From Planctomycetota bacterium (GTDB lineage: Bacteria; Planctomycetota; Planctomycetia; JALXBF01), in the NCBI GenBank assembly GCA_026991575.1, contig JALXBF010000006.1, positions 6,402 to 70,401 of the forward strand: 64,000 bases of DNA, given 5' to 3'. Positions 9,154 through 30,500 of this stretch are shown here, one piece after another; the stretch's first letter is position 1, and each line of letters starts with the position of its first letter. The notes under the pieces were generated by a model. It searched no databases. It had not been told where the DNA came from and saw only the letters and a list, made by a program, of their open reading frames with translations. The translations under genes were made by a program, and so were the position numbers.

Positions 9154-9796
9154 TCGGCCACTCCGCCGTCGTGCCAGACTCGGGTTCGCAGCCCCTAGGA
9201 AGCCAACCACCCTTTGCCGACGCGAGCGCGAGCGTCGTTGCCAGCGAGCCGGGCGTGGCGCCAGCCGGTCGACTGCTTCCCGGCAAGTCGCGTCACGCGC
9301 ACTCTGTTTGCCCTGCCTCGGCAAATCGCAGGCCTGGCGGTTGACGCTCCCGTCGCACGGTTGATGCAACAGCACCCGCGTGGCCACCTCAGTCTTGGTC
9401 CGTCTCCCTGGGCGGACGCGGCATCGCCAGCTGCGACGCCAGGCCAGGAGCGCTCAGTGTGCCCCGGGGCAGGGCATTCGCTTCTCGCAGCACGTCGCGA
9501 TAGCGTCCCCGTGCCGGTGTACCCAGATTGACCCGGGCGCTGCCGGCCACGCCGCCGATGCCGTGACTCCGGGGTTCACGGCTGGGGCGGCGGCCCAGGT
9601 GCATCCGAACATCGGTGGCCTCGTCCGACGGGCTCACCGGCGACGCAGCGGGAACTGAGTTAGCCCCCTGCCACAGAACGCGTAGTCCGTCTGCCAGCGT
9701 AAACTGGAGTGTTAGGGCACGTGAAGGAGAATCACATACGGCGTGGGCACCGCCGGGGCCTGCGTGCGCGCCGCGTGGCGATCATTCGGGTTTGAA

Positions 9797-10885
9797 ATGG
9801 CAGACGGCACGGTTCCGGACGCCAACCTGCCCATCCGACAACCGGCCAAACGGCGCGGCGCGCCGCTAGCGCCGCCCAACCGGTTCGAACACACCCGCTA
9901 CGAGAACGAACCGGGGTATTTTGAAGACAGCGACGCGCCGGCGATTCGACGCACCCAGTACTTTCCTGACCGCAGCCGGACGATCATCGCGAGCAACGAC
10001 AGCCCCGACGTTGGCTTCCGCTACAGCGTGAACCCGTATCGCGGCTGTGAGCATGGCTGCCCGTACTGTTACGCGCGTCCCACGCACGAGACGCTGGGCT
10101 GGAACGCCGGCATTGACTTCGAGACCAAGATCCTGGTCAAGTACGACGCCCCCGAATTGCTGCAGCGTGAGCTGAGCTCACCACGATGGCAGGGGGACGT
10201 GCTCGCGTTTTCCGGCGTCACGGATTGCTATCAGCCGATCGAACGAAAGCTGAAGCTGACGCGCCGCTGCCTGGAAGTCTGTGCCCGGTTCCGCCAGTCG
10301 GTGGCCGTCGTCACCAAGAACGCCCTCCTCTTGCGCGATCTGGATATCCTCACCGACATGGCCGCCAGGAACCTGGTGCACGTAATCGTCAGCATCACGA
10401 CGCTCGATGCGCGCCTGGCCCACGAAATGGAGCCGCGCGCAAGCTTACCGTCCCGCCGGCTGGCGATGATCGAGCATCTGGCGGCGGCCGGCGTGCCAGT
10501 CGCCGTGCTGGTTGCGCCGGTTGTCCCAGGGCTCACGGACAGCGAAATCCCGGCAATACTTGAGCGGGCGGCCGAAGCCGGGGCCGGTGCGGCCGGGTAC
10601 ACGTTGCTGCGACTGCCCGGTGCCGTGCAGACCGTCTTCCTGGACTGGCTCGAACGCGTTTATCCGCAAAAACGGGCTGTTGTTGAGGCACGGGTCAGGG
10701 CATGCCGTCACGGTCGGCTGAACGACAGCCAATTTGGTCGCCGGATGCGTGGAGAGGGGCCGGTAGCGGAGATGATCGCGCAGCTATTTCACGCTGCAGC
10801 CCGACGCACGGGCCTGGACCGAGAGTTGCCTCCTCTGAATACGACGGCCTTTCGCCGTCCAGGCAGCCAGCGCACGCTGTTCTGA
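9797..10885 (+). CDS. PA0069/Rv2578c-family radical SAM protein (SplB-like)
   Basis: NDSPDVGFRYSVNPYRGCEHGCPYCYARPTHE (CxxxCxxC), SGVTDCYQP, MEPRA. Start placed at ATG 9797. Confidence 0.9.
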   Translation: MADGTVPDANLPIRQPAKRRGAPLAPPNRFEHTRYENEPGYFEDSDAPAIRRTQYFPDRSRTIIASNDSPDVGFRYSVNPYRGCEHGCPYCYARPTHETLGWNAGIDFETKILVKYDAPELLQRELSSPRWQGDVLAFSGVTDCYQPIERKLKLTRRCLEVCARFRQSVAVVTKNALLLRDLDILTDMAARNLVHVIVSITTLDARLAHEMEPRASLPSRRLAMIEHLAAAGVPVAVLVAPVVPGLTDSEIPAILERAAEAGAGAAGYTLLRLPGAVQTVFLDWLERVYPQKRAVVEARVRACRHGRLNDSQFGRRMRGEGPVAEMIAQLFHAAARRTGLDRELPPLNTTAFRRPGSQRTLF

Positions 10886-12250: not shown

Positions 12251-14392
12251 ATGAGCAGCGACTCCGGCAGCAACAGCAGTCCGATTTGGCTCCGCCTAGG
12301 ATGGCTCGGGCGGGCCCTGGCGTTTGCCTACGCGCTGGGCTTCGTGGCTTGGTACTTCAGCTTCACGCTGCCCAATAGCCAGGTCCCGCGCGGCCAGGTG
12401 TGGCTGTGGTCCCTGGGCCTGCTGCCGGACATGACGCCGCCGTTGGTGGAAGCGTTCCGCGAGCTGCTCGGCTCCCGGTATCTGGGCCAGCGGATTGCGC
12501 CGCTGATATGGGGCGTTTCGGTCCTGCTGACCAGCTGGTCCGCCGGCTTGCTGGCCTGGACCGTCCTGGAGCGCTGCCTCAAGCTGCCTCAGCCAGATCT
12601 CTTGATGCGATGCCTCCTGTACTACACGCTTGGAACCGTCCTGGTGGCAAACGCTACGCTCGTTGCGGGTCTGCTCGGGTTGCTGCGGCCGTGGCTGTTC
12701 CGCGCGGCCATGGCAGTGACGCTGGCATCAGCAACGATGGTCGCCCTGTTGCAAGAACGGCGTCGCTCGGCGCGGGCTGACGGCGAACGGGTAGAACCGG
12801 CGTCGTGGCAGCGGGGGATCTGGCTGGTAGCCGGGACTGTGGCAGCCGTGGCACTGGTTCTGGCGGTCGCCGGTTCGCTTCTGCCGGCAACGGACTTCGA
12901 CGTGCGCGAGTACCACCTGCAGGGGCCGAAGGAGTACTTTCTTGCCGGTAGGATCGGCTTCCTGGAACACAACGTGTACACGAACATGCCGTTCGGCACG
13001 GAGATGCTGAGTCTGTTTGCCATGGTGGTCAGCGGCGACTGGTGGTGGGGGGCGCTGGCCGGCCAGGTTGTCCTGGCGAGCTATCCAGCGCTGACCGGTG
13101 TGGCCGTGGTCGCGCTGGCGAGAGTTGCGTTCGGCAGTGCGGCCATGCCGTGGGCACTGCTGGTTGCCGCTAGCACGCCATGGTTTTATCGGCTGGCGAC
13201 GATTCCGTATGCAGAGGGGGGCTATTGCTTCTACACGGCGATGGCCGCTTTGGCCCTGCTTCCTCTGCTGGGCCGGCCGTCCAGGAGGCACGATGAGCGT
13301 TTCTCATGGCTTCTGGCCGGCTGGTCGGCCGCGGCGGCGTACGGCACCAAGTACACAGCCGCGTTGTTCATCGTTGTGCCGGTGGTCGCACTGCTGGCCG
13401 CAACCGCCTGGCAACGCCGATCGCTACGGGTGTTGGGCCTCGGGCTCCTGGCGGCGGCAGCGGCCGGCGGGTTGTGGCCGCTGAAGAACATCCTCCTGAC
13501 TGGCAATCCGGTATATCCGCTCGCCTATGAGCTATTCGGCGGCCGTAACTGGAACGCCGAGAAGGACCGCAAGTGGGACCGTGGCCACAGTGTGCCCGGC
13601 TACCGGCTGCGGCAACTGCAGCAGAATGTCATCGACGTGGTGGCCAAATCGGACTGGCAGAACGCGCTCGTTTTTGCGTTTGCCCCGTTGGCGCTCGCCG
13701 CGGGCTCTGGGCACCGACGCTACGCTGTGGCTCTATGGCTTGCCGTGCTCTACTTGTTTGCCTGCTGGTGGCTGGCCACACACCGGATCGACCGCTTCTG
13801 GTTGCCGCTGTTGCCGGTCGCGTGCACGTTGGCTGCCGGCGGGCTGGCGTGGCTAGCCCGAGACGGCCGGTCTGCCGGCGGTCTGCTAGCACTGGCCGGG
13901 GCGGTTGCCTATTTCAATCTCTCGCTGATGGCGTCACCACTGACGGGCAACAACGCCTACGGGATTCCTCTGGACGATCGGCTCCGAGACCCGCTGAACA
14001 CAGCCACGGGCGCGGTGGTGAAATACTGCAACGCTCGCCTGCTGCCAACGGAGCGAGTGCTGGCGGTCGGCGCAGCCGATCTGTTCCATCTGAACCGCGA
14101 CTACGCGTACAACACGGTCTTCGACGACTGTCTGTTCGAGCGCTGGACCGCGGGCAAGACGCCGCGCGAAGCGGTGGCGGCGTTGCGTCACCGAGGGTTC
14201 ACACACCTGTTCGTGTGCTGGGAGGAGATCCTTCGCTATCGCAACACGTACGGCTACACCGACTATGTCAATCCGCGTCTGCTGACTGCATACGAACGGG
14301 CAGGGGTCGTGGAGATGGAATATGCGCATCCGGACCCGATCAAGCTGGATGGGGTCTTCGTACCAAGAGGCGTGCTCTACCGCTTGAAGTAA
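12251..14392 (+). CDS. Polytopic membrane protein, probable GT-C fold glycosyltransferase (ArnT/PMT-like)
   Basis: More than 12 hydrophobic segments, DFDVREYHL loop, GTKY motif, WPLKNILLTGNPVYP, C-terminal extramembrane domain. GT-C call is inference. Confidence 0.55.
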   Translation: MSSDSGSNSSPIWLRLGWLGRALAFAYALGFVAWYFSFTLPNSQVPRGQVWLWSLGLLPDMTPPLVEAFRELLGSRYLGQRIAPLIWGVSVLLTSWSAGLLAWTVLERCLKLPQPDLLMRCLLYYTLGTVLVANATLVAGLLGLLRPWLFRAAMAVTLASATMVALLQERRRSARADGERVEPASWQRGIWLVAGTVAAVALVLAVAGSLLPATDFDVREYHLQGPKEYFLAGRIGFLEHNVYTNMPFGTEMLSLFAMVVSGDWWWGALAGQVVLASYPALTGVAVVALARVAFGSAAMPWALLVAASTPWFYRLATIPYAEGGYCFYTAMAALALLPLLGRPSRRHDERFSWLLAGWSAAAAYGTKYTAALFIVVPVVALLAATAWQRRSLRVLGLGLLAAAAAGGLWPLKNILLTGNPVYPLAYELFGGRNWNAEKDRKWDRGHSVPGYRLRQLQQNVIDVVAKSDWQNALVFAFAPLALAAGSGHRRYAVALWLAVLYLFACWWLATHRIDRFWLPLLPVACTLAAGGLAWLARDGRSAGGLLALAGAVAYFNLSLMASPLTGNNAYGIPLDDRLRDPLNTATGAVVKYCNARLLPTERVLAVGAADLFHLNRDYAYNTVFDDCLFERWTAGKTPREAVAALRHRGFTHLFVCWEEILRYRNTYGYTDYVNPRLLTAYERAGVVEMEYAHPDPIKLDGVFVPRGVLYRLK

Positions 14393-15993: not shown

Positions 15994-16479
15994 TCAGAAA
16001 AAGCCCAACTGGTTGCGGGCTTCCTCGCTCATCCGGTCCGGCGTCCAGGGCGGGTCCAGCGTCAGCCGCACGTTGGCAACGATGCCGGGGCGAAGCGCTT
16101 CAATGGCCTGCTTCGCTTGCATCATCATCTGTGGCCCAGCCGGGCACAGCGGCGAGGTCAGCCCGAGATCGACTTTGACCTCGTTCCCCTTCACCTCGAC
16201 ATTGTAGACGAGGCCCAAGTCGACGACGTTGACCATGAGCTCCGGGTCAAAGACGCCCTTCAGCGCTTCCAGGATCTGGGCGGTAGTCAGCTCCTCACCG
16301 CTGCCACCGCTCTCGCCAGCAGCGGGCTGCGTCTGCTGCCCCTGGTCGTTGCCGGCTGGTGCCGCCGGCGCGGCCTCCGGCGAGCGATCCGACGCCGGCT
16401 GCGTAGCATGCTCACCAGGCGATCCAGTACCGAGCGTCTGCTTCGGTTCGCGAGTCTCGGACGCACCGCTCACGGTCAA
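15994..16479 (-). CDS. sufT: DUF59 / SufT-like metal-sulfur cluster assembly factor with low-complexity N-terminal extension
   Basis: VFDPELMVNVVDLGLVY, LTSPLCPAGP, DPPWTPDRMSEEAR; start overlaps the Rieske stop. Confidence 0.88.
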   Translation of the reverse strand: MTVSGASETREPKQTLGTGSPGEHATQPASDRSPEAAPAAPAGNDQGQQTQPAAGESGGSGEELTTAQILEALKGVFDPELMVNVVDLGLVYNVEVKGNEVKVDLGLTSPLCPAGPQMMMQAKQAIEALRPGIVANVRLTLDPPWTPDRMSEEARNQLGFF

Positions 16480-16799
16480 TCCTCCCGCAATCGCACGTAC
16501 ACTTTGCCGTCGTGCACACGCACCTCATGCACGCGGATCGGCTCCACAGCCGGCATGCGTGTTACGGCGCCAGTGCGGATGTCGAACCGCGCTCCGTGCC
16601 TGGGACATTCGATCTCATAGCCGCAGAGCGGTCCATCGCCAAGCGGACCGTCGTCATGGGTGCACACGTCATCGATCGCATACAGCTCACCGTCGACGTT
16701 CAGCACCAGCACGGGCTGTTCATCGACGATGACGTGTTTGCGTGCGCCTGCCGGTAACTCCGCCAGCTGCGCCACCTGGACGAAGCCTTCCTGGTCCAT
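16476..16799 (-). CDS. Rieske [2Fe-2S] ferredoxin (dioxygenase ferredoxin type)
   Basis: DDVCTHDDGPL and IECPRHGARFD (CxH...CxxH); GGAGG RBS before ATG 16799. Confidence 0.92.
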   Translation of the reverse strand: MDQEGFVQVAQLAELPAGARKHVIVDEQPVLVLNVDGELYAIDDVCTHDDGPLGDGPLCGYEIECPRHGARFDIRTGAVTRMPAVEPIRVHEVRVHDGKVYVRLRED

Positions 16800-16901: not shown

Positions 16902-18260
16902 TCAGAGCGCGGCCAGCTCGAAAACCTCCTCCGGCGCCGGCAGGCGGAAACCGAGCTTCTCCGCGACTGCCGCGCGCAGAGCGGCACGGACCGATGGAAT
17001 GGCGATACGGTTGACCACCTCGGTGAAGAAGCCTTCCACAATCAGGTGCACGGCTTCGTCGTGCTCCAGCCCCCTGCTCTGCATGTAGAAGACCTGCTCC
17101 GGGTCCACACGGCCGGCCGTGGCCCCGTGTGTGCAACGAACATCGTCCGCTTCTATCTCCAAGCCAGGGATCGAATCGGCACGGGCATGGTCGGAGAGGA
17201 TCAGGTTGTCGTTTCGCTGGTAAGCGTTGGTCTTGAGTGCCCCCTGCTCCACGCGAATCATCCCGCGCCAGACGATGCGGGCTCGTTCCGTAAGGGCGCC
17301 ACGGAAAAGCAGATCGCTGCGCGTCGCGCCGACACGGTGCCACTGACGCGTGTGATAGCTGAGATGCTGCCGATCCCGGGCAAACATTAGCCCGTTGACG
17401 TCCGCTTCAGCGCCACGCTCGCTGAGCTCTACCTCCTGGTTCACCTTAGAAAGCTTGCTGCCGAGCACGCCGACGGCCCAGTCCACCGCCCCATCTTGGT
17501 CACAGAGGACGCGCTGATGGGCAAAGTTCCATACCTTGATGCCCAGGTCCTGCAGCGTTACCAGCCTCAGCCGGGCACCGCGGCCAACAAACACTTCCAG
17601 TGCTCCCAGGTGCAGGCCGTCCTCCAGCTCCGGAGGCGAAAGCAGCTCGATAAACAACGTGGCCTCGGCCCCCTCCTCCAACACGATCAACGTGTGCGAC
17701 GTCTCGGCAGCCGATGGCGTGGCCAGGGCTGTAACCACGTGAAGGGGGGAGGAGAGCATCATGTTCCGCGGCACGTACAGAAAGGTTCCACCCGACCAGA
17801 ACGCCGCATGAGCGGCGGCGAACTTGTCATACAACGGATCGACCGCACGGGTGAACAGATACCGCCGGACCAGTTCGCCATGCTCGCGGACGGCGTCATC
17901 CAGCGAGCAGAAAACCACTCCTTTGCTCGTCACTTCGTCGGCAAGTGACCGCTCCAGTTCGCAACCATCGACGACGACGCGATGGCCGTGCACGGTGGTC
18001 CGGTCGAAGAGCCGCAGCGTCACGGCCTCGGCCGGTAGAACGACTTGCCGGGCTCCTGCGGACAGAACGGCTGCAGGAGTGTACCGCTGAAACGAGAACA
18101 GCCTCAGATCCGTGCGGCGCCACTCCTCATGGCTTCGCGACGGGAATGGCATCCGTTGGAATGCTTCAAACGCCTGCCGTCGCTGGCGCAGCGACCAGTC
18201 CGGCTCGGCACGCTCACTGAGGAAGCGTTCGAATGTCTCTTGGTCGAATCCGCTAGTCAT
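16902..18260 (-). CDS. sufD: Fe-S cluster assembly protein SufD
   Basis: EEWRRTDL, KFAAAHAAFWSGGTFLYVP, AYQRNDNLILS, SIPGLEIEADDVRCTHGATAG, FYMQSRGL. Confidence 0.95.
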   Translation of the reverse strand: MTSGFDQETFERFLSERAEPDWSLRQRRQAFEAFQRMPFPSRSHEEWRRTDLRLFSFQRYTPAAVLSAGARQVVLPAEAVTLRLFDRTTVHGHRVVVDGCELERSLADEVTSKGVVFCSLDDAVREHGELVRRYLFTRAVDPLYDKFAAAHAAFWSGGTFLYVPRNMMLSSPLHVVTALATPSAAETSHTLIVLEEGAEATLFIELLSPPELEDGLHLGALEVFVGRGARLRLVTLQDLGIKVWNFAHQRVLCDQDGAVDWAVGVLGSKLSKVNQEVELSERGAEADVNGLMFARDRQHLSYHTRQWHRVGATRSDLLFRGALTERARIVWRGMIRVEQGALKTNAYQRNDNLILSDHARADSIPGLEIEADDVRCTHGATAGRVDPEQVFYMQSRGLEHDEAVHLIVEGFFTEVVNRIAIPSVRAALRAAVAEKLGFRLPAPEEVFELAAL

Positions 18261-18356: not shown

Positions 18357-19769
18357 CTAGCCCACGGAGCCCTCCATCTGGAGTTCGATCAGCCGGTTCA
18401 TCTCCACGGCGTACTCCATGGGCAACTCCTTAACCAGCGGCTCGATGAAACCAGCCACGATCAACGTGGTCGCTTCCTGCTCGGTAAGTCCCCGGCTCAT
18501 GAGATAGAAGAGCTGCTCCTCACCGATTTTCGACACGCTCGCCTCGTGCCCGATCTGGACGTCGTCCTCCTCAATCTCGATGTATGGGTACGTATCGCTG
18601 CGGCTCTTCGGATCCAGGATCAGCGCATCGCAGACCACATTGGCCTTCGCCTTGCGGGCTCCCTTGGCAATGCGCAGCAGGCCGCGGTAACTGGTGCGGC
18701 CACCATCCTTGGAGATCGACTTAGAGATGATCCGGCTCGAGGTATACGGGGCCGCGTGGATGATCTTGGCCCCGGCATCCTGGTGCTGGCCACGGCACGC
18801 GAAGGCGATGGAGAGGATTTCGGCCCGGGCGCGTGGGCCGAGGAGATAGACGGCCGGGTACTTCATGGTGACCTTCGAGCCGATGTTGCCGTCGATCCAC
18901 TCCATCAGCGCATCTTCGTACGCAACCGCCCGCTTGGTCACCAGGTTGTACACGTTCGGCGCCCAGTTCTGGATGGTCGTGTACCGGCAGCGCGCACCCC
19001 GTTTGACGACGATCTCCACCACGGCGCTGTGCAACGAAGCGGTCGTATATAGCGGGGCCGTACACCCCTCGACATAGTGTACCTGAGCACCTTCCTCGAC
19101 GATGATCAGCGTCCGCTCGAACTGTCCCACCCGTTCAGCATTGATCCGGAAGTAGGCCTGCAGCGGGAAGCCCACCTTCACGCCGGCAGGCACGTACACA
19201 AAGGAGCCGCCGCTCCAGACGGCCGAGTTCAGGGCGGCGAACTTGTTGTCGGTCGGCGGGACGATCGTGCCGAAGTACTGGCGCACCAGGTCTGGGTACT
19301 GCTTGAGGCCTTCGTCCATGCTGAGGAAAATGACACCGAGCTTCTCCAGCTCCTCGCGGACGTGGTGGTAGACCACTTCGCTGTCATACTGCGCGCCGAC
19401 GCCGGCGAGGAACTTCCGCTCGGCCTCAGGAATACCCAACCGGTCAAACGTGCGCTTCAGTTCCTCCGGCACGTCGTCCCAGGTCCGTCCGACACGGTCC
19501 GTGGGCCGCACGTAGTAGCAGATGTCATCGAAGTTGATTTCCGAGAGGTCTGCCCCCCAGGTAGGCATGGGCTTCTGGAAAAAGATCTCCAGGGCTTTCA
19601 GCCGAAACTGGAGCATCCATTCCGGTTCGCCCTTGATGGCGGACATCTCGCGCACGACTTCCTCGGTCAAGCCCCGGCCGGCCTGGTAAACCGGCTTGAC
19701 CTCGTCGTGAAAGCCATACTGGTATTCGCTGACCCCCTGAATGGGCACGTTCTTTTCGGCCGTAGCCAT
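18357..19769 (-). CDS. sufB: Fe-S cluster assembly protein SufB (no intein)
   Basis: [68 protein letters not shown]; normal length of 470 aa. Confidence 0.97.
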
Positions 19770-19828: not shown

Positions 19829-20662
19829 TCAGACAGCCGCCTGCTCCGAAGCCGCTTCGGCCGCTGCCTGTTCGGCCTCCAGTTCGGCTAGCAAGTCCTT
19901 GTACTTCTCACGGAAGGAGGCGTAGCCTTCCTCGTGGACGCGGTGAGCGAGTTGCCAGTCACCGGTCTCGACAATGCGGCCGGCAAGCATAATGTGGACG
20001 AAGTCTGGACGATTGTGTTCCAGCAACCGCTCGTGGTGTGTGATGATCAAGAAGCCGGTCTCCGGACCCCGCATCCGGCGGATCCCCTCAGAGACCACGC
20101 GCACCGCATCGGAATCCAACCCGCTGTCGGTCTCATCGAGGATCGCGAACTTGGGCTTGAGCAACAGCAGCTGCAGGATCTCACACCGCTTTTTCTCGCC
20201 CCCGGAGAAGCCTTCGTTCAGATAACGGCGGGCAAAGCTGGGGTCCATCTCCAACAGCTTCATCGCCTGCATCAGTTCCTGACGGAACTCACGCATCGGG
20301 ATCAGCTCCTCGCCCTCCTTGCGCTCAGGATTGCGGATGTTGCTGACGGCGTGGCGCAGAAAGTTGGCGACGGTCACCCCCGGGATCGCAACCGGGTACT
20401 GGAAGGCAAGGAACAGTCCCTGGCGTGCGCGTTGGTCCGGCGACAGCTCCAGTAGATCGGTCCCGTTAAGGGACACCGACCCTTCGGTAATCTCGTAGCC
20501 CGGGTGGCCCATGAGGGCATAGGCAAGCGAGCTCTTGCCCGAGCCATTCGGGCCCATCAGCGCATGCAACTCTCCTTGGCGAATGGTTAGGTTCACGCCG
20601 CGCAGGATCGGCTTTCCCTCAACGGACACATGCAGGTTTTCAATCTTCAACGTCTTACTCAT
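19829..20662 (-). CDS. sufC: Fe-S cluster assembly ATPase SufC
   Basis: MGPNGSGKS Walker A, FLAFQYPVAIPGV, NEGFSGGEKKR, LDETDSGLD. Start at ATG 20662. Confidence 0.97.
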   Translation of the reverse strand: MSKTLKIENLHVSVEGKPILRGVNLTIRQGELHALMGPNGSGKSSLAYALMGHPGYEITEGSVSLNGTDLLELSPDQRARQGLFLAFQYPVAIPGVTVANFLRHAVSNIRNPERKEGEELIPMREFRQELMQAMKLLEMDPSFARRYLNEGFSGGEKKRCEILQLLLLKPKFAILDETDSGLDSDAVRVVSEGIRRMRGPETGFLIITHHERLLEHNRPDFVHIMLAGRIVETGDWQLAHRVHEEGYASFREKYKDLLAELEAEQAAAEAASEQAAV

Positions 20663-20702: not shown

Positions 20703-21305
20703 CTAAGCAGACGCCTCTTCTGAGGCCGACACCCGATAGTCCTCCGGCTTAATGGGCAGCTCCGGGTAGCCGGTGTGGTGCGGGACGGGCAGCTCGTCGG
20801 TGGCATCCCGAGCGATCCGCTCAGCCCGTACCCGGTCCTGCACCCGCATCAGCCCCTCCAGCAGCGCCTCGGGCCGCGGCGGGCAACCCGGCACATACAC
20901 GTCCACCGGGACCACCAGGTCCACCCCTTTGACCACGTGGTAGCCGTACTTGAAATAAGGGCCACCACCGCAGACGCAAGCGCCCATGGCGATGACATAC
21001 TTCGGATCGGGCATCTGGTTGTACAGCCGCCGCACCCGGCTGGCCATCTTGTAGGTCACGGTCCCGGCGACGATCATCAGATCGGCCTGCCGGGGCGTGG
21101 CACGGAAGGCTCCGGCACCGAAGCGATCGATATCAAAGCGGCTGCAGCCAACGGCCATCATCTCGATCGCACAGCACGCGAGCCCGAAGGTCAACGGCCA
21201 CAGGCTCGACTGCCGTGCCCAGTTGATCGCCTGCTCCAGGCTGGTGATCACCACGCCCTCGGAGAACCGATCTTCGATCCAGGGAGTTCGTCCGTCGTGC
21301 GGCAT
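20703..21305 (-). CDS. nuoB: NADH-quinone oxidoreductase subunit B-like [4Fe-4S] protein (orphan; no other nuo genes in window)
   Basis: [65 protein letters not shown]; GGAGG RBS before ATG 21305. Confidence 0.93.
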
Positions 21306-21401
21306 CGGCCACCTCCAACGTGCTTCTGCCCACGGAGCGCCCCCGCGAGCGCCACGAACCGGAATTGTACCGGCGGGCGCCCCGGTCCCAGCCTTCAACG
21401 C

Positions 21402-22034
21402 TTACCGCCCTGCAGCACACTCACGTACCTCGAACTCACAACAACGAGCCCCGTTCAGGCGGCACTGCGTCAGCCGGACGTTGGCATCAAGCGCGGTGCT
21501 GAGCACGCGTCGCTCGATGCCGCAAACCTTGCGATCCCCATCGGCCAACTGCTGGTACGGACAACTCAGCAGTCGCAGCGCCAGCGAGCCGTCCGTGGAC
21601 GTGGCCATTTCCGCCAGGATGCCACGCCGCCGGAACAGCGCTACAAGCCGCCCCAGCCGCTCGGCCAGCGACCGGCCCGAAACCAACGCGCGGTACGTGC
21701 GCCCCAACCGATCGCCCACCTGCTTCAACAACCGGATGGCCAGCGGGCGATCGGCCTGCGCGTCGATCTCGTTCCAGAGGGCGATTGCCAGGTCGGTGAA
21801 GTTGTTGCCCAGCTCGCTGCGGACGTCGCTGGGCACGAAGTACACGTGGCGCGGCCGCCCGCGGCCATACCGCTGCTGACGCCGCTCCACGAGTCCTCGG
21901 GCCATGAGCCGGTTCAGGTGGTGCCGGACCGCCGTGGCCGTGATCGAGCACGCCTCGGTCAGCTCCTGCACCGTCTTGGGCCCTTCGGCCAGCAGTACCT
22001 GCAAAACCAAATCTTCTTCCACGACGACCGCCAT
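21402..22034 (-). CDS. sufR: SufR-type Fe-S-responsive HTH transcriptional regulator
   Basis: N-terminal wHTH (TVQELTEACSITATAVRHHLNRL...GRPRHVY); C-terminal CPY-x-C...E...C...CC ligands; heads the suf cluster. Start ATG 22034 lies downstream of the predicted promoter. Confidence 0.8.
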   Translation of the reverse strand: MAVVVEEDLVLQVLLAEGPKTVQELTEACSITATAVRHHLNRLMARGLVERRQQRYGRGRPRHVYFVPSDVRSELGNNFTDLAIALWNEIDAQADRPLAIRLLKQVGDRLGRTYRALVSGRSLAERLGRLVALFRRRGILAEMATSTDGSLALRLLSCPYQQLADGDRKVCGIERRVLSTALDANVRLTQCRLNGARCCEFEVRECAAGR

Positions 22035-22073: not shown

Positions 22074-22102
22074 ATTGTACGCCCGGCAAGCAATTTTGAC
22101 AA
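22074..22102 (-). promoter_or_regulatory. sigma70-type promoter for the sufR-nuoB-suf operon
   Basis: Minus strand TTGTCA (22102-22097) - 17 nt - TACAAT (22079-22074), 40 nt upstream of sufR ATG, in an AT-rich patch. Confidence 0.75.
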
Positions 22103-22425
22103 CCAATATAGCGAAAAACAACGTCCGCACGCGCGACCGGCCGAGCGCACGAATCGGCTCCTGTCAAGCTGGCCACGTCAGTTCCGGGCGTCTCCGATCG
22201 CTACGGACCGCTCAACGACTTCAGCACCCCCAGCCGCCAGTTGCGCTACGGACAGCGCAGCCGGGGCCAGAAGGCAGCTGGTTGCGCAATCGAAGGGGGC
22301 AGGAACGGGCGATAACCACCAAAGGCAACGGCTGAACGTGCGCACGGAGTGTGGCCAGTACACGATGCTCGAAGGATCGAGGGCTTCCCAATGGACCACG
22401 CGGTACGGCGCAGAAGGTGGCACCC

Positions 22426-24384: not shown

Positions 24385-27300
24385 GTGGTGCGTCAACGAT
24401 TCGCGAAACCCCTGTGGATTCTACTGGTTTGCGCGGCAGTATGCCCGTGGCCGGCGGTGCTGGAGCATGCGTCGGCTCAGCAAGCTCAGCCTCCGCTGCC
24501 GCCTGAGCTACTTTCCTATCGCAGGCTTTCGGTGTTCTATATCGCCAAGGACCTGGACAGTGCGCTTCAGCCGGTTGCGCGTGCGGATGCTGAGCCGCAG
24601 GCTGCCCTGCCCGGGCGGCCTCGTGTGCTGCCGGCAGAAGTGCACGCCACAGGCCGTGTTGATGGCGCCGTGGTCCGGCTGACGTTCACTGTCGACGTGG
24701 TCGCAGGTCCGGCTGGCGCCCTCTGCGTGCTCGGCCTCGGCAACGCGGTCCTGGAGGGAGCCCGCGCCGCCGTTGGCCAGGGGCTTGCTGTGCTGTGGCA
24801 CGAACAGCTCGGTTACCTGCTCGAACTGCCAGGTCCGGGCCGTTACCAGGTCCAGCTCCAAGCAGTCCTCCCGGCACTAAGGCTGAACCAGGGTGGTGCG
24901 TTGCGTCTGGCACTACCTGGTGCGCCCGTGACAGGGATCGCGCTTGACTTGCCAGCCGGGACCAGCTTCGTCCAGATCCTGCCGGACCGCCCGCATCGAC
25001 TGGAGCAGCGAGACGGCAGCGGTGCTCGTTTGACTGTCGCCGCCGGCAGCGTCCGGGAGCTGCTGGTCCGCTGGGCCGACAGCCCCCCTCAGTCCCCGCG
25101 CGTGGCCCGGTTCGTGGTCAGCCAGAGTCGCGTTTGGGCCAATGATCGGGCGGTCACGTTGCAGAGTGAGCTGAGGCTGACGGCAGCCGAACCGGTCGCT
25201 AGCTGGCAGATCGAGTTGCCGGCCGGGGCCCGGTTCATATCGGCCGAACCGGTGGGGGAGGCCCGTTTCGACCGGATTCTCAACACGGAAAAAGGGCGGA
25301 CGACGCTACGACTCGAAGCAATCGACTCGCGGTTCAGTCACGCGGAGCTCCGGCTTGAGCTTCAGTTCCCCTTCGACCGTGAGGGTCGTAGCCGCGTGGT
25401 GGGTGTTACCGTCGCCGACGCGGCCGAGCACACCGGGTGGGTCGTACTTCAACTTGATGTAGACAGCCAGCTTGGTGTCACGGCCACCGAGCATCTCGTG
25501 CCCCGCGACCCGGCCGACTATCCGGGAGAGCTGCCGCAGGACGGACCGCTGTATGTGTGGCGGGTTGGTGGGGCACCGTTTGCATTAGAGCTGCAGCGGT
25601 TCGCAGTGGCCGGGCCAGTACGGGCAACCGTAGACGTGGCTGCGCTGGCCGAGGAGGCGTCGACGGCCGTGGCCGCCCGTTTCACGCTGCGTGCCAACAA
25701 GCCACTGGAAGCTGTCGAAGTAGCTCTGCCCCGGGACGTCGCCGGGTTACAGCTGGCGACGCAAGAGATGGTTCATGCCGTGCCCCCGGTGGAACTGGAC
25801 ACAACGGGCCACTACCCGGAGCGGGTCACGATCCGCTCGCCGCGCCGCAGCAGCACCACGTTCTCGTTCACGCTGACGTATCGCGTACCGCACGTCACCG
25901 CTGGACCGTCAGCCCCCCGCACCGTCCCCCTGCCGGCGCTGCTTGGCGCCCAGCCGGAGCGAGTCCGCGTGCTGATCGCCGCAACGGATGCGCCAGCTTG
26001 GCTCGTCGCCCCCGAGGCCAGGGAGACGCACGCCGACTTTGACGGGGCAACTGCCCTGCTGGCTCTACTTCAGCAGCAAGCCCGGGTCATCGTCCGCGCT
26101 TACGAACTGGTCGCGCCCCGACTGCCCCAGCTCACGATCCAAAAGGGCTCGCCGGCCCTCAGCTACCATGGTGACGCTCAGGTGAATATCACGCTGGTCG
26201 ACGGCAGGCTGCGCGTTGAGCAAGCGCTCCGCTACACCCCGCCCGACGTGCTGCTCCGTGGCCTGGAACTGCTCGTGCCAGCCCCGCTGGAACATTCCAT
26301 CCGGTGGCCTGAACAGCTCCGTGTCCAGCCGCTCGGCAACGGCCGTTATCTGGTGCAACCAACGGTCGCATCCGACCAACCCGGAACCGGATCGGTCCGC
26401 TGGCAGTTTGATCTGGCAGTGCCTGAGGATGGCCCGCTGAGCTTGCCACTGGTCGTTCCCGACAACTTACCGGTCACGTGGACAGAGCTTCTTGCCGAGC
26501 TGCCGGCTTCTCTGCGACTCCGGGTGGCGGATGCCGGCTGGCACGAAGCGGGACTGGAAGCCCGTGACGACGCGGCCACGATCCGATGGCGGTGGTACCG
26601 GCCGGAGAACGTGCCGACACAGGCGAAGTTGACCATCGAACGCATCGGTGCTGCCCTCGGGTACGGTTGGTTTGCCGATCGTGTGCTGTATCGTGTGGCA
26701 TTTGAGCCACCTGACGGCCTCCGCTGGCGCTGCTCCTGGCGGTTCACGCGCCTCCGCACCTCCGAAGTAACACTCCGAGTGCCGTCCGGTGCCACGGTCG
26801 TTGAAGTGACCGTTGACGGTAAGCCGGCTGCCTGGGGAGCGGTGGCACAGAACCAGTATCGGGTACAAATCCCGCAAGCACGTGGCTCAGCCCGTCTGCT
26901 CAGCGTGGCCATGGTGCAGCGGTTGGACAGGCCGCTGGGACTGGTACGGAACCTGAGTCTCACCCCCCCGAACCTGTCGGGTTCTGGCATCTTGGGCGAG
27001 ACGCTCTGGGAGTTGCGGCTGCCTCCGCTTCTGCATCCGCTGCTAGGCGGGACCAACTATGTGCCGCTGGTAACGTTTCGCCTCAGCGCAGCCCCGGGCT
27101 GGTTTACTGCCGCACTGGGACCCGATGAGCTCGCAGCATGGATCGGCCAAGGCCACGACCAAGACGCTGCCAAGGCGCCAACTCCGGTTCCCAGGGCCGT
27201 GCTGTACGCTCCCGCCAACGGCGGCCCACTGCGGCTGGCGGTGGTCGCACTGGCGTTACTGGCACTGGTCGCCGCTCTAGCGGCGTTCCTGATCACCACC

Positions 27301-27576
27301 CTTATGTTCCTTCTGCCGAAACAACTCGCGCAAGCCACCGGTGCCCTTACGCTGGCGGGCCTTCTGCTGTTGGCCTGGTGGGATCTGCCCACGGCGGTGC
27401 TGGTCATCCAGTATGGCATCGTCGGCGGACTCATTGCCGTGGCAGCAGCCCTGGTGCGTCGCCGGCTAGAGCTTGAACGTGTCCGACGTGAGCTCTTCCG
27501 GCCGGCCGTGCCACCAAGCAGCTCCGTAGCACGCGACAGCCGCGCTGCGGCCGAAGTGGCCTCGGAGGTCCGCTGA
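24385..27576 (+). CDS. Large hypothetical membrane protein (1063 aa): signal peptide, about 5 beta-rich modules, 3 C-terminal TM helices
   Basis: Leader ending HASA|QQ; recurring xLPxG motif (LDLPAGTSF, IELPAGARF, LRVPSGATVVEVTVDG); hydrophobic C-terminus; no catalytic motif recognised. Confidence 0.85.
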   Translation: MVRQRFAKPLWILLVCAAVCPWPAVLEHASAQQAQPPLPPELLSYRRLSVFYIAKDLDSALQPVARADAEPQAALPGRPRVLPAEVHATGRVDGAVVRLTFTVDVVAGPAGALCVLGLGNAVLEGARAAVGQGLAVLWHEQLGYLLELPGPGRYQVQLQAVLPALRLNQGGALRLALPGAPVTGIALDLPAGTSFVQILPDRPHRLEQRDGSGARLTVAAGSVRELLVRWADSPPQSPRVARFVVSQSRVWANDRAVTLQSELRLTAAEPVASWQIELPAGARFISAEPVGEARFDRILNTEKGRTTLRLEAIDSRFSHAELRLELQFPFDREGRSRVVGVTVADAAEHTGWVVLQLDVDSQLGVTATEHLVPRDPADYPGELPQDGPLYVWRVGGAPFALELQRFAVAGPVRATVDVAALAEEASTAVAARFTLRANKPLEAVEVALPRDVAGLQLATQEMVHAVPPVELDTTGHYPERVTIRSPRRSSTTFSFTLTYRVPHVTAGPSAPRTVPLPALLGAQPERVRVLIAATDAPAWLVAPEARETHADFDGATALLALLQQQARVIVRAYELVAPRLPQLTIQKGSPALSYHGDAQVNITLVDGRLRVEQALRYTPPDVLLRGLELLVPAPLEHSIRWPEQLRVQPLGNGRYLVQPTVASDQPGTGSVRWQFDLAVPEDGPLSLPLVVPDNLPVTWTELLAELPASLRLRVADAGWHEAGLEARDDAATIRWRWYRPENVPTQAKLTIERIGAALGYGWFADRVLYRVAFEPPDGLRWRCSWRFTRLRTSEVTLRVPSGATVVEVTVDGKPAAWGAVAQNQYRVQIPQARGSARLLSVAMVQRLDRPLGLVRNLSLTPPNLSGSGILGETLWELRLPPLLHPLLGGTNYVPLVTFRLSAAPGWFTAALGPDELAAWIGQGHDQDAAKAPTPVPRAVLYAPANGGPLRLAVVALALLALVAALAAFLITTLMFLLPKQLAQATGALTLAGLLLLAWWDLPTAVLVIQYGIVGGLIAVAAALVRRRLELERVRRELFRPAVPPSSSVARDSRAAAEVASEVR

Positions 27577-30500
27577 TGCCAGGTTCGGGTCGAGCCAGAC
27601 GCCAGCTGTTGCACGTCTCGGTGCTGCTAGGCGTAACGACCGTGCTTTCTGCCTTGCCGCATCCGCACTGCGCTGCGCAGGATCTGGCGCCGGCAAGCAG
27701 GCCGAACGCAGCCGCGGCACCGGCCGCTGTGCCGGCCCGCGTGATCCTTGGCGAGCGTGGTTGGTTGCCGGAATTCATCCAACGCTTCGGCCCAGCGGTC
27801 CGCCTCGATCGGCGCTCCCTTGTGGAGCTGCTGGAGCAGGCTGCGGGTAGCCTGCCCGTGGCGAACGTGCACAGCGTGCACGTTCAGGTCGATCAGTTCG
27901 GCGAAACGGTCACCGGCTCGGCTCGGATCACGCTTCGCGCCAACCGCAGCCCGTGTTTGCTGGTCATTCCGCGACCGCTGGCGGGCTGTCTGCACCGAGT
28001 CGAGATGGATGATACCCCCCTTCGCCCGTTCGCCTCTCGGACCGACGCCGATTTGTTCCTAGTGCGTGCAACAGGACCGGCTACCGTGTCAGTCGCGTGG
28101 GATATGGCCCCCCCGAGAGCGGATGACTGGTCCTGGCTGCAGTGGCACTGGCCCGGCGTCTCGGTCCACTGGCAGCTGCCCGCCACCTTGACGAGCGTCA
28201 TCGCAGAGGACGGCTTGGTCAGCCGAGAGCGCGATGGATCCTGGCAGGCTTGGTTCGCGCCGGGTAAGGCCGCGTCGCTGCTCGTGCAGGACGGCGCGGC
28301 AGGACCGCCTTCTCAGCCAAGTAGCCCGCCGGTGTTTGCGAAACTGGTCGGCAAGCACACGGCCGTCGCGCCTGACCTGGTGCGCGTGCGTCTGAGCGTG
28401 GTGCTTTCCCGCCCGCCGGTCGGTAAGCGGAAGCGGCTGCGGCCCGTGCAGATCGCCTTGCCGCCAGCGTTCGTGGCACGCTCGATGGCTGCGGAGAGGC
28501 TGAAGGTAGCTGCGGCGGCCGACGGCGCCGGTATCGTGGCACTGCTGCCACAGGAGACGGACCAAGGCACGCTGGAACTGACCGGATCGCTACGCATCTC
28601 CAACAGTCGCCTGGCCCTGCCGCTGGCACGTCTGGACGGCGCGCTGGTCCTGGCACGAGAACATGCCTGTTACGGCCCGCCAGATGCAGTCTTTGCCCTG
28701 GAAGAGGCACGGGGTGTCCGGCCTGTAGCCTCGATCGCCCCCGCCGCTGACGAAGCACCGGAGCTTCGGCTCTCGTGGACCACGCCCGACGGTCGAGCGG
28801 TGCTGCGGCTGTACCGCACCGCTGCCCCGCTGCGCGCTAGTGCTACCGTCCGGCTGCATGCCGGCGAACAGACCCAAGCCCTCTGCGAACTCCGCTACCA
28901 GGCTGCCGACCGGGAGGTGCGACTGCTCCGGGCATGCCTGCCCGGCGGCTGGCGGGCCGTGTCCGTGACCCCCTGTGATGAGACCGTCGTGGAGGCGTGG
29001 CGTGTTAACGATCGAGAATGCGTCGGCAAGGCTGGGGGGACTGACGCGGCCCGGTCAGGCGGTCAGCTTGACGTTTGGCTTGCCCGGCCGCTGGGCCCTG
29101 GCGACCGTGCCTGCGTTCAGGTGGTGCTGGAGCCGATCGACATTGCGGGTGATCGGCCGCATCCGTTACCGCTGGTTCTGCCACTGGCACCGCTGCGCGA
29201 GCAGTGCAGCCTGGAGCTGGAATCGGACCCGGGCCACCGTGTCGAGCTGGTCACAGCGTTTGGCCTGGAGCCGGCCGCCACGTCGCAACAGACTGCTTTG
29301 CCGGGCATCACGCGGCTCGCATACGGCGAGCAGTCCCGCGGTACCTTCCGGACGGTGATCCGCACCCCCCGGCCGGACGTGACGCTTCGCACCGTCATTC
29401 GAGTCGACGCCGATGCGCTGAGGGCCACCTATGTCGTGGAGCGGCCAGAAGGTGCAGTCGCCAAGTGGGACAGGCCGTTGCGGCTGCGTTGGAGCGCTCC
29501 GGTACCAGGACTCGCGCTTACGCACGTTGCGACCGAGCTGGCTGCGGAGTTGCAAGAGGACCAGACCCTACTGGTGCGACAACGGCTGTCGGCAACCGCG
29601 GAGGCCAGGCCCGAAGCGAGCCATCCTGAACTGGTACGTCTCGCGGCCAGCTGGGCCGGCATCGACTCGGTCACCATCCCGCTTCCCACCCCGGTGGACG
29701 CGAACCTGGTCGAAGCTACGGTGACCGTTCAGCTGCTGAGCACCGATGTCGCCCTCGACGCCACAGGGCTGACGCCCGAGACAACGGCCCGCATGCCCAA
29801 CGGCGGCCGAACGCTCACGTACCGGTACGCCGCTGGGCAGCTGGCGTTGCGCGTGGTGCGCAAGCGGGGCGAAAGAAGTAGCGCCCGGCTAACGGCGTGC
29901 GGTGTTACGGTCACGATGCACGGTGACCAAGGCCGCGTGTGGTGGGATCTGGGCCTGAGCGTCGCCAGAGCCGCCAGGCTTACGGTGCGCCTGCCGGCGG
30001 GATTCCAGCCGCTGGCGGCTGAAGCCGGTGGACTACCGCTGGAACAAACCGGAACGCCATCGGTTCTGTCCGGCAGAATCCAAGGGGGCCTGCACCGCGT
30101 CCGCGTGATCGCGTCGATGCCCGCTGGTCCGTTTCGAACCGCCACCGTACGTCTGCCGGTGCTGTTAGTTGACGGAGAGCCCGTGCCCAGGCCGGAAGCG
30201 ATCATTGCCCGTGTGCTGACACCAGCACGCTGGCGTGCCGTGCTGCTAACCAGTAGCCGACGTACCGGTCCGCGGCTTCCCGGCTGGCAGTTTGTCGCCG
30301 TGCCCTATGTTTGGCTAGCGCATCGTCTCAACCGGCACCACCAACAGGAGCCGACGCTGCGCGTCGCGCCTGAGCAACTCAGGACCGTTGGCGATCTGCT
30401 TCGTCAGCTAACGCCGACTGTCGTTGTGGACCGCTTTGCACTGGCTGCAGCCGATCTGCAACCGGACCGCCCACTGATTGTGCCTCCCGGAAGCAAGCAG

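What the first reader, a model, noticed from the sequence alone, without database searches (positions are those of the whole stretch)
20703..21305. Orphan complex I NuoB embedded between sufR and sufC
Seen: a complete NuoB (CC...C...CP ligands of cluster N2, plus an extra Cys in GACVCGGG) is the second gene of the Fe-S assembly operon, with no nuoA/C/D in 64 kb. Known: nuoB normally sits in nuoA-B-C-D. Inference: either a repurposed stand-alone [4Fe-4S] carrier, scaffold or sensor filling the role of the absent SufA/SufU, or SufR tunes complex I assembly through its N2 subunit. Either would be an unusual Fe-S system.
Basis: partly seen in the sequence, partly recalled or inferred. Interest (0 to 1): 0.7.

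Follow-up and report, generated by a model that had tools for sequence, protein, structure and literature searches.

The report
Complex I nuoB relocated into suf operon
This is an ordinary respiratory complex I subunit gene (nuoB) that one branch of planctomycete bacteria moved out of the complex I operon into the iron-sulfur assembly (suf) operon; it most likely explains where their "missing" nuoB is, and it is not a new iron-sulfur carrier.

Summary
Window 20703-21305 (minus strand) encodes a full-length NuoB with all four N2-cluster cysteines. It is the second gene of sufR-like, nuoB, sufC, sufB, sufD, Rieske, sufT, and no other nuo gene lies in the 64 kb.

The order is not a one-off. It recurs in 15 genomes or contigs of Pirellulales and Planctomycetales, including Aeoliella, Bremerella and Schlesneria.

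The protein is an orthologue of operon-encoded NuoB, not a diverged paralogue:
- It is 73-82% identical to NuoB from nuoI-A-B-C-D clusters of Phycisphaerae and Gemmataceae.
- It mixes with them in the tree on short branches.
- It keeps 96% of universally conserved NuoB columns.

Pirellulales nuo clusters run nuoA-nuoC-nuoD with no room for nuoB, as in Pirellula staleyi, Lignipirellula cremea and metagenome contigs.

Best reading (0.8): this is the working, probably sole, complex I NuoB. It is transcribed from a conserved promoter and inverted repeat upstream of sufR, so it is probably under SufR control.

A role as SUF scaffold or carrier is not supported. The extra cysteine is not conserved.

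The layout appears undescribed, and interest is modest.

The parts
22074..22121 (-). Promoter-like region of the operon: T-rich upstream element (22111-22121), -35 TTGTCA (22097-22102), 17-nt spacer, -10 TACAAT (22074-22079). The upstream element and the -35 box form an imperfect inverted repeat, the putative SufR operator.
   Evidence: The scan finds one promoter-like site, matching 10 of 12 positions. TTGTCA-16/17-TAnnAT preceded by TTTTTCAAAC-like sequence was picked out in 9 of 11 orthologous loci by my pattern and seen by eye in the other two. In L171 the repeat is perfect: TTTTGACAA-N6-TTGTCAAAA. The operator role is inferred.
21402..22034 (-). SufR-like regulator (210 aa): N-terminal winged helix-turn-helix and a C-terminal domain with four invariant cysteines.
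   Evidence: Pfam hits HTH_5, TrmB and MarR_2. TIGR02702 SufR_cyano scores 72 bits, below its cutoff of 179. C158, C171, C191 and C199 (C-X12-C-X19-C-X7-C) are invariant in 12 of 12 orthologues.
21306..21401 (-). The 96-nt sufR-nuoB spacer, with the ribosome-binding site GGAGGT before the nuoB ATG. It holds no terminator-like site and no conserved internal promoter.
   Evidence: The spacer ranges from an overlap (TGACATG in L004 and L006, TAATG in L024) to about 260 nt in orthologous loci.
20703..21305 (-). nuoB: the complex I subunit that carries [4Fe-4S] cluster N2. Ligands are C44, C45, C110 and C141. The roughly 35-aa C-terminal tail carries the motif [10 protein letters not shown] (aa 171-180).
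   Evidence: Family matches, solved complex I structures, tree, conserved columns, tail motif and extra Cys.
19829..20662 (-). sufC, the Fe-S assembly ATPase. It starts 40 nt after the nuoB stop codon.
   Evidence: TIGR01978 scores 341 bits against a cutoff of 213. Gene call.
18357..19769 (-). sufB
   Evidence: SUFBD_core, E 1.8e-90.
16902..18260 (-). sufD
   Evidence: SUFBD_core, E 1.2e-77.
16476..16799 (-). Rieske-type [2Fe-2S] protein of the suf operon
   Evidence: PF00355 on the gene call. It is conserved in this position in the orthologous loci.
15994..16473 (-). SufT-like DUF59 protein (FeS_assembly_P), the last conserved gene of the operon
   Evidence: PF01883 on the gene call. It is conserved in this position.

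Best explanation
This is the genuine, and probably the only, gene for the complex I subunit NuoB (Nqo6/PSST, carrier of cluster N2) in this planctomycete.

In an ancestor shared by Pirellulales and Planctomycetales, nuoB left its place between nuoA and nuoC. It became the second gene of the suf operon, between the SufR-like regulator and sufC. It is transcribed with the SUF genes from the promoter upstream of sufR, which overlaps an inverted repeat that probably binds SufR.

The polypeptide receives its [4Fe-4S] cluster like any other SUF client. It then assembles with NuoD, NuoC, NuoI and the membrane arm, which are encoded elsewhere in a nuoI-A-C-D-H-J-K-L-M-N type cluster.

Shown:
- the identity of the protein
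- orthology with operon-encoded NuoB
- strong constraint on the sequence
- conserved gene order across two orders
- a conserved promoter
- nuo clusters without nuoB in Pirellulales

Inferred:
- co-transcription
- control by SufR
- single copy in this genome
- assembly into complex I

Whether the linkage is adaptive or a frozen accident is open. It could match supply of the N2 subunit to Fe-S assembly capacity. Or nuoB may simply have become dependent on a housekeeping promoter.
For: 1. Family membership. PF01058, TIGR01957 and NF005012 all score above their cutoffs. The best solved relatives are all complex I NDUFS7/PSST/Nqo6/NuoB chains, with E 2e-60 to 1e-49. Identity to mouse NDUFS7 is 60% over 146 residues.

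2. Orthology. The window protein is 73-82% identical to NuoB from nuoI-A-B-C-D clusters of Phycisphaerae and Gemmataceae. In an 87-row tree, suf-linked and nuo-linked planctomycete NuoB share one clade (SH-aLRT 84-95). Suf-linked end branches are short, mostly 0.03-0.2, and there is no split into paralogues.

3. Constraint.
- Suf-linked NuoB keep 96% of the 63 columns that are at least 90% conserved in 60 nuo-linked NuoB of other phyla. Nuo-linked planctomycete NuoB keep 97%.
- The only suf-specific columns lie in the C-terminal tail.
- dN/dS is at most 0.15, with dS saturated.

4. The complementary gap. In Pirellulales-type nuo clusters the nuoA stop abuts or overlaps the nuoC reading frame, and no NuoB match appears even at E 10.
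- L098: nuoI-A-C-D-H-J-L-M-N
- L108, L095, L131
- Lignipirellula cremea CP036433.1
- Pirellula staleyi CP001848.1
The NuoD proteins of these clusters are named Pirellulaceae or Pirellulales by their sources.

5. Conserved order. The order sufR, nuoB, sufC, sufB, sufD, Rieske (followed by sufT wherever the contig reaches that far) occurs in 15 genomes or contigs. These include Aeoliella SH292, Bremerella cremea, Bythopirellula, Thermoguttaceae and Schlesneria.

6. Operon anatomy. The promoter and inverted repeat upstream of sufR are conserved. sufR/nuoB and nuoB/sufC overlap in some genomes.

7. Co-loss. In a published Stieleria pair, chain B is listed with chains A, C, D, H, I, L, M and N as specific to the strain that has complex I (PMC11588811 text and Table S6).
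Against:
- I did not obtain both loci from one and the same genome record. The link is at the level of orders and families.
- Co-transcription and SufR control are inferred from anatomy. No RNA run holds this stretch.
- Some orthologous loci have long spacers (up to about 260 nt) and hairpins around nuoB, so separate or attenuated transcription is possible there.
- The conserved His-His tail motif is unexplained.
- I did not verify that the Stieleria nuoB is suf-linked.
Confidence: 0.8

Rival explanations
1. Repurposed NuoB. The suf-linked protein no longer works in complex I. It serves the SUF machinery as a [4Fe-4S] carrier, scaffold or sensor, filling in for SufA/SufU.
For: - The position inside the suf operon is conserved across two orders.
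- nuoB overlaps sufR or sufC in some genomes.
- A conserved tail motif ELPVPHH[ST]GY is absent from Phycisphaerae NuoB.
- No SufS, SufU or SufA lies in the window.
Against: - No sequence signature of a changed function. 96% of universally conserved NuoB columns are kept and no suf-specific substitutions occur in the core.
- The branches are short and mixed with nuo-linked orthologues.
- The nuo clusters of Pirellulales lack nuoB and would have no N2 subunit without this gene.
- Chain B is absent together with the rest of complex I in Stieleria SV_7m_r.
- A related tail (LPVPARTG) occurs in nuo-linked Gemmata NuoB, and LPVP-type tails occur in stand-alone NuoB of L015 and L017. The tail is therefore not tied to suf linkage.
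Confidence: 0.05
2. Redundant paralogue. The genome also has a canonical nuoB in a full nuo operon, and the suf-linked copy is a second, condition-specific isoform, for example one made under Fe-S stress.
For: - Two nuoB copies per locus or genome exist in other phyla (L030, L031, L034, L152).
- A second planctomycete NuoB clade in canonical A-B-C-D-H-I-J-L-M-N operons exists (L027, L040, L116).
- The window's genome could not be searched.
Against: - All Pirellulales-type nuo clusters I recovered lack nuoB.
- No locus that its source names as Pirellulales or one of its families (Pirellulaceae, Lacipirellulaceae, Thermoguttaceae) carries a nuo-linked nuoB.
- Suf-linked NuoB is not a separate paralogue clade.
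Confidence: 0.1
3. Frozen accident. The gene is the working complex I nuoB, but its place in the suf operon has no regulatory meaning. In a phylum with fragmented operons it landed behind a constitutively active housekeeping promoter and stayed because it has no promoter of its own. This is a variant of the best explanation.
For: - nuo genes are scattered in many ways in Planctomycetia. Gemmata has inserts between nuoA, B and C. L015 and L017 have nuoB alone. L. cremea has nuoA-C-D cut off from nuoH-N.
- Spacer lengths around nuoB vary widely.
- I found no conserved internal promoter.
Against: - The order has survived across two orders in a phylum with poor synteny, even where foreign genes were inserted elsewhere in the operon (Aeoliella).
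- An unrelated soil MAG independently joins sufCBD-Rieske-sufS-sufU to nuoB-D-I-C (L078). That hints at selection for the linkage.
Confidence: 0.35

Closest known systems
Canonical NuoB / Nqo6 / NDUFS7 (PSST), the 20-kDa N2 subunit of respiratory complex I (e.g. T. thermophilus 4HEA/2FUG chain 6, mouse 6G2J chain B, E. coli 7NYR)
   Same: - Same fold family.
- All four N2 cysteines.
- 60% identity to mouse NDUFS7.
- 96% of universally conserved columns kept.
- Same clade as operon-encoded planctomycete NuoB.
   Different: - The gene lies in the suf operon and not between nuoA and nuoC.
- The protein has a roughly 35-aa C-terminal tail with the motif ELPVPHH[ST]GY.
Planctomycete nuoI-A-B-C-D-H-J-K-L-M-N clusters of Phycisphaerae and Gemmataceae (11-subunit type, nuoI first, no nuoEFG)
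   Same: The NuoB proteins are orthologous, at 73-82% identity. The rest of the Pirellulales cluster has the same order with nuoI first.
   Different: In Pirellulales, nuoB is cleanly missing from the cluster and nuoA abuts nuoC. The gene sits in the suf operon.
SufR-controlled suf operons of cyanobacteria (sufR / sufBCDS) and actinobacteria (sufR-sufBDCSU-sufT, some with a Rieske gene); the comparison is from my own knowledge
   Same: - A winged-helix regulator with C-terminal cysteines, including a C-X12-C pair.
- A sufBCD core.
- Rieske and DUF59/SufT genes in the operon.
- A palindromic site at the promoter.
   Different: - sufC precedes sufB.
- No sufS or sufU in the operon.
- The regulator scores below the SufR_cyano cutoff.
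- A client apoprotein gene (nuoB) is embedded between the regulator and sufC.
Split nuo operons with Q-module genes encoded elsewhere
   Same: Core complex I genes are missing from the main cluster and encoded at a second site.
   Different: Here the second site is known and specific: the Fe-S assembly operon. Only nuoB moved.
L078-type array sufC-B-D-Rieske-sufS-sufU-nuoB-nuoD-nuoI-nuoC in an unclassified soil MAG (DATGHZ010000008.1)
   Same: SUF genes and the N2 subunit gene are physically linked on one strand.
   Different: - The whole Q-module follows the suf genes, whereas in the window nuoB alone is inserted after sufR.
- It is a different lineage, so the linkage probably arose independently.

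Membership tests
NuoB / Nqo6 / PSST subunit of complex I | Sequence matches the curated family models above their cutoffs | tested here: met
   PF01058 scores 97 bits (cutoff 27), TIGR01957 236 bits (cutoff 143) and NF005012 243 bits (cutoff 116).
NuoB / Nqo6 / PSST subunit of complex I | Four cysteine ligands of cluster N2 (tandem CC, a third C, and C in GCPP) | tested here: met
   C44, C45, C110 and C141. The columns are invariant in the alignment.
NuoB / Nqo6 / PSST subunit of complex I | Orthology with NuoB encoded inside nuo operons | tested here: met
   Same clade as nuo-linked planctomycete NuoB, with short branches. Identity is 73-82%.
NuoB / Nqo6 / PSST subunit of complex I | Conservation of residues shared by all complex I NuoB (interfaces and acidic residues near N2) | tested here: met
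   The window protein keeps 61 of the 63 columns that are at least 90% conserved. The two deviations are conservative: L155V and I159V.
NuoB / Nqo6 / PSST subunit of complex I | Other complex I subunits are encoded in the same genome and assemble with it | not testable with these tools
Related Pirellulales have nuoI-A-C-D-H... clusters that lack only nuoB. Physical assembly needs biochemistry.
SUF carrier or scaffold proteins (SufA/ATC, SufU/IscU, Nfu) | Homology to Fe-S_biosyn, NifU_N or Nfu domains | tested here: not met
   The only Pfam hit is Oxidored_q6. No such domain is present.
SufR (Fe-S-sensing repressor of suf operons), for the upstream gene | Winged HTH plus C-terminal cysteine ligands, and a match to TIGR02702 | tested here: inconclusive
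   The HTH is present and four cysteines are invariant, including a C-X12-C pair. TIGR02702 scores 72 bits, below its cutoff of 179. Cluster binding is untested.
SufBC2D-type SUF operon | sufB, sufC and sufD present and adjacent | tested here: met
   TIGR01978 sufC scores 341 bits. Two SUFBD_core proteins are present.

The most novel reading that the evidence does not exclude
The linkage is functional. By placing nuoB under the Fe-S-sensing SufR-like repressor, next to sufC, these planctomycetes would make synthesis of the N2 subunit, and so assembly of the complex I quinone module, depend on the cell's Fe-S assembly status. The conserved His-His tail (ELPVPHHSGY) could be a docking or hand-over element between nascent NuoB and the SufBC2D/SufT machinery. 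The independent suf/Q-module array in L078 would be a second instance of the same principle.
Probability: 0.12. Interest if true: 0.65.

Novelty: new variant of a known kind. Interest (0 to 1): 0.38.

Why it matters
It most likely closes a bookkeeping gap. Pirellulales complex I clusters lack nuoB, which could be misread as an incomplete or exotic enzyme. The gene turns up in the suf operon in genomes of the same order.

For annotators, it means an "orphan" nuoB next to sufC should be counted when scoring complex I completeness in Planctomycetota.

For Fe-S biology, it offers a natural case in which one client apoprotein gene has been kept inside the assembly operon across two orders. That makes one question testable in tractable planctomycetes: is supply of the N2 subunit coordinated with Fe-S assembly capacity?

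If the linkage is only a frozen accident, the finding is a curiosity of gene order.

Tried and rejected
The single-copy question for this genome stays open.
- Finding both loci in one genome record:
  - The lists of best NuoB and NuoD homologues share no contig.
  - Matching NCBI accession neighbourhoods of cluster members found no pair from one MAG. The closest was MFO0903477 against MFO0918279, about 14,800 apart.
- Laying the contigs of the source metagenome (run X1, hydrothermal vent) on a Pirellulales nuo cluster at 80% likeness gave hundreds of short pieces from many organisms and was uninterpretable.
No RNA run holds the window stretch, so co-transcription could not be checked.
- A first NuoD search with a Phycisphaerae-like query returned only Phycisphaerae-type proteins. 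It was replaced by a profile of NuoD from nuoB-less clusters.
- dN/dS: synonymous sites are saturated (dS above 1), so the values are only rough upper bounds.
- Literature searches for nuoB with suf, sufR, Planctomycetes or Rhodopirellula found no description of this arrangement.
- An internal promoter before nuoB was considered. The window spacer has a TACAAT but no -35 box at proper spacing, and nothing is conserved across loci.
- The extra cysteine as a fifth ligand or special site was rejected, because it is not conserved.

Full report
**1. The observation**

On the minus strand, window 20703-21305 is a 200-aa ORF whose ATG is preceded by GGAGGT. It matches PF01058 (E 7e-28), TIGR01957 nuoB_fam (236 bits, cutoff 143) and NF005012 NuoB (243 bits, cutoff 116).

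The four ligands of cluster N2 are present: C44 and C45 in [11 protein letters not shown]110 in MGAC and C141 in PGCPP.

The neighbours on the same strand are a SufR-like regulator (21402-22034), sufC (19829-20662), sufB, sufD, a Rieske protein and a DUF59/SufT protein. No terminator-like site lies between sufR, nuoB and sufC.

A tblastn search with NuoA, C, D, H, I, J, L, M and N finds nothing else in the window. Pfam scans of the remaining genes show no nuo gene and no SufS, SufU, SufA or SufE.

The one weak point is the "extra Cys" in GACVCGGG. It is real, but only 8 of the 120 closest homologues have a Cys there and most read GACTVGGG.

**2. The arrangement is a lineage trait**

Look-ups of close homologues gave the same order (sufR-like, nuoB, sufC, sufB, sufD, Rieske, sufT) in three records:
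- Aeoliella sp. SH292 (CP197417.1)
- a 7.3-Mb contig of GCA_021651095.1
- Bremerella cremea

A scan of one genome per species, followed by a tblastn map, added nine more loci. They carry source labels such as Bythopirellula, Pirellulaceae, Thermoguttaceae, "Planctomycetaceae" and Pirellulales.

Cluster members led to Schlesneria sp. (CP172346.1, Planctomycetales) and an 8.3-Mb MAG with the same order.

That makes 15 distinct genomes or contigs in two orders. Five other first readers of this scan noted the same thing in other genomes. I treat those notes as leads only.

**3. What the protein is**

The window NuoB is 73-82% identical to NuoB encoded in nuoI-nuoA-nuoB-nuoC-nuoD clusters of Phycisphaerae and Gemmataceae.

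In an 87-row maximum-likelihood tree, all these planctomycete sequences form one clade (SH-aLRT 84-95). Suf-linked and nuo-linked rows are mixed within it. Suf-linked end branches are mostly 0.03-0.2, no longer than those of nuo-linked rows.

Sixty-three columns are at least 90% conserved in 60 nuo-linked NuoB of other phyla. Suf-linked proteins keep 96% of them and nuo-linked planctomycete proteins keep 97%. The window protein deviates only at L155V and I159V.

The only columns specific to suf-linked proteins lie in the C-terminal tail. Pairwise dN/dS is at most 0.15, although synonymous sites are saturated.

Against solved structures, the best 40 matches are all complex I NDUFS7/PSST/Nqo6/NuoB/NdhK chains. 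Identity to mouse NDUFS7 is 60% over 146 residues.

Nothing in the sequence suggests a changed function.

**4. The complementary gap**

An earlier follow-up in this scan (e1-2299464) reported that Pirellulales nuo clusters run nuoI-A-C-D-H-J-K-L-M-N without nuoB. It could not say where nuoB is. I tested this independently.

A metagenome scan with a NuoD alignment, mapped by tblastn, gave loci with nuoA followed directly by nuoC:
- L098, on a 119-kb contig: nuoI-A-C-D-H-J-L-M-N
- L108, L095 and L131

In these loci the nuoA stop abuts or overlaps the nuoC reading frame, and no NuoB match appears even at E 10.

A profile of their NuoD proteins retrieves proteins that their sources name Pirellulaceae or Pirellulales. 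Two of them are from complete genomes:
- Lignipirellula cremea CP036433.1 has nuoA (8693-9388), nuoC (9401-9922) and nuoD, with no nuoB.
- Pirellula staleyi CP001848.1 has nuoI, DUF2203, nuoA, nuoC and nuoD, with no nuoB.

A complex I without the N2 subunit cannot reduce quinone; this is established knowledge of the enzyme. These orders therefore need a nuoB elsewhere, and the suf-linked gene is the obvious candidate.

**5. A natural experiment**

[quoted passage not shown] Its Table S6 lists chains A, B, C, D, H, I, L, M and N together as specific to TBK1r (PMC11588811).

NuoB is thus lost along with the rest of complex I. That is expected for a complex I subunit and not for a SUF component. 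I did not verify that the Stieleria nuoB is suf-linked.

**6. Operon anatomy**

Upstream of sufR, the window has TTGTCA-17-TACAAT (22074-22102) behind a T-rich element.

My pattern search picks out TTGTCA-16/17-TAnnAT with an upstream TTTTTCAAAC-like element in 9 of the 11 orthologous loci compared, and by eye the other two (L003, L008) have it too. In L171 the upstream element and the -35 box form a perfect inverted repeat, TTTTGACAA-N6-TTGTCAAAA. That is the likely operator of the winged-helix regulator.

The regulator has four invariant cysteines, C158, C171, C191 and C199, in the pattern C-X12-C-X19-C-X7-C. It scores below the cutoff of the cyanobacterial SufR model, so I call it SufR-like.

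Spacers vary between loci:
- sufR and nuoB overlap in L004, L006 and L024 and are up to about 260 nt apart elsewhere.
- nuoB and sufC overlap (ATGA) in L019 and are up to about 215 nt apart elsewhere.

I found no conserved internal promoter. Co-transcription is thus well supported by anatomy but not shown, because no RNA run holds this stretch.

**7. Interpretation**

Best explanation (0.8): this is the working, probably sole, complex I nuoB. It was relocated into the suf operon in an ancestor of Pirellulales and Planctomycetales and is expressed from the SufR-controlled promoter.

The carrier or scaffold reading gets about 0.05. A redundant-paralogue reading gets about 0.1.

Within the best explanation, I cannot decide between an adaptive coupling and a frozen accident.
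- An adaptive coupling would match supply of the N2 subunit to Fe-S assembly capacity.
- For the accident: nuo genes are scattered in many ways in this class.
- For selection: the order survives across two orders in a phylum with poor synteny, even where foreign genes interrupt the operon.
- Also for selection: an unrelated soil MAG (L078) independently joins sufC-B-D-Rieske-sufS-sufU to nuoB-D-I-C on one strand.

**8. Limits**

I could not search the window's own genome for a second nuoB or for its nuo cluster.

I also did not obtain both loci from one genome record. Contig-length and accession matching failed, and laying metagenome contigs on a nuo cluster was too noisy. The link between "nuoB in suf" and "nuo cluster without nuoB" therefore rests on the same orders and families, not on the same genome.

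**9. Novelty**

The protein is an ordinary NuoB. The conserved embedding of a client apoprotein gene between the regulator and sufC of a suf operon was not found described in five literature searches.

I rate it a new variant of a known kind, of modest interest. It most likely resolves an apparent gap in planctomycete complex I and gives a testable case of possible coordination between Fe-S assembly and complex I biogenesis.

Noticed in passing
window 20763-20792 (NuoB aa 171-180); also P0001-P0120: The C-terminal tail of NuoB carries a conserved motif ELP[VI]PHH[ST]G[YWF], found in 80 of the 120 closest homologues. It is absent from Phycisphaerae NuoB and weaker (LPVPARTG) in Gemmata. Its function is unknown; it could contact a lineage-specific partner.
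   Followed up: partly
L078:4092-12904 (DATGHZ010000008.1, unclassified soil MAG): All on one strand: sufC-sufB-sufD-Rieske-sufS-sufU-nuoB-nuoD-nuoI-nuoC, with sufU and nuoB overlapping by 20 nt. This is an independent physical linkage of SUF genes and the complex I Q-module outside Planctomycetota.
   Followed up: partly
L171:9169-9224; L007 upstream of sufR; window 22097-22121: An inverted repeat TTTTGACAA-N6-TTGTCAAAA overlaps the -35 box of the sufR promoter. It is perfect in L171, near-perfect in L007 and degenerate in the window. It is a candidate operator for planctomycete SufR-like repressors.
   Followed up: partly
L168:7342-11206 (Pirellula staleyi CP001848.1): The order is nuoI, DUF2203, nuoA, nuoC, nuoD. 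It may encode an accessory factor of this NuoEFG-less complex I.
   Followed up: no
L003:11505-14185 (Aeoliella sp. SH292): The suf operon is interrupted by a DUF4160/DUF2442 gene pair between sufC and sufB, and by a Uma2-family gene between sufB and sufD. The sufR-nuoB-sufC order is kept.
   Followed up: no
window 24385-34472 (+): Two adjacent giant ORFs of 1063 and 2298 aa have no Pfam hit on record. They lie just upstream of the DUF72, LysM and suf region.
   Followed up: no
L015:5059-5658 and L017:5857-6474: Planctomycete NuoB genes with the same type of tail (LPVPIQSGF, LPVPHHSGF) have neither suf nor nuo neighbours within the contig. This is a third, stand-alone arrangement.
   Followed up: no
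L027, L040, L116: A separate clade of NuoB (68-69% identical to the window protein) sits in canonical nuoA-B-C-D-H-I-J-L-M-N operons. L027 and L040 are on contigs labelled Planctomycetaceae; L116 is an unlabelled metagenome contig with the same layout and was not in the tree. Whether these are another lineage or second operons in some genomes is unknown.
   Followed up: no
L171:12794-14234: In the 8.3-Mb MAG, sufD is matched in two pieces (12935-13717 and 13701-14225), and the gene caller reports only a 150-aa fragment. This may be a frameshift or an assembly error in sufD.
   Followed up: no
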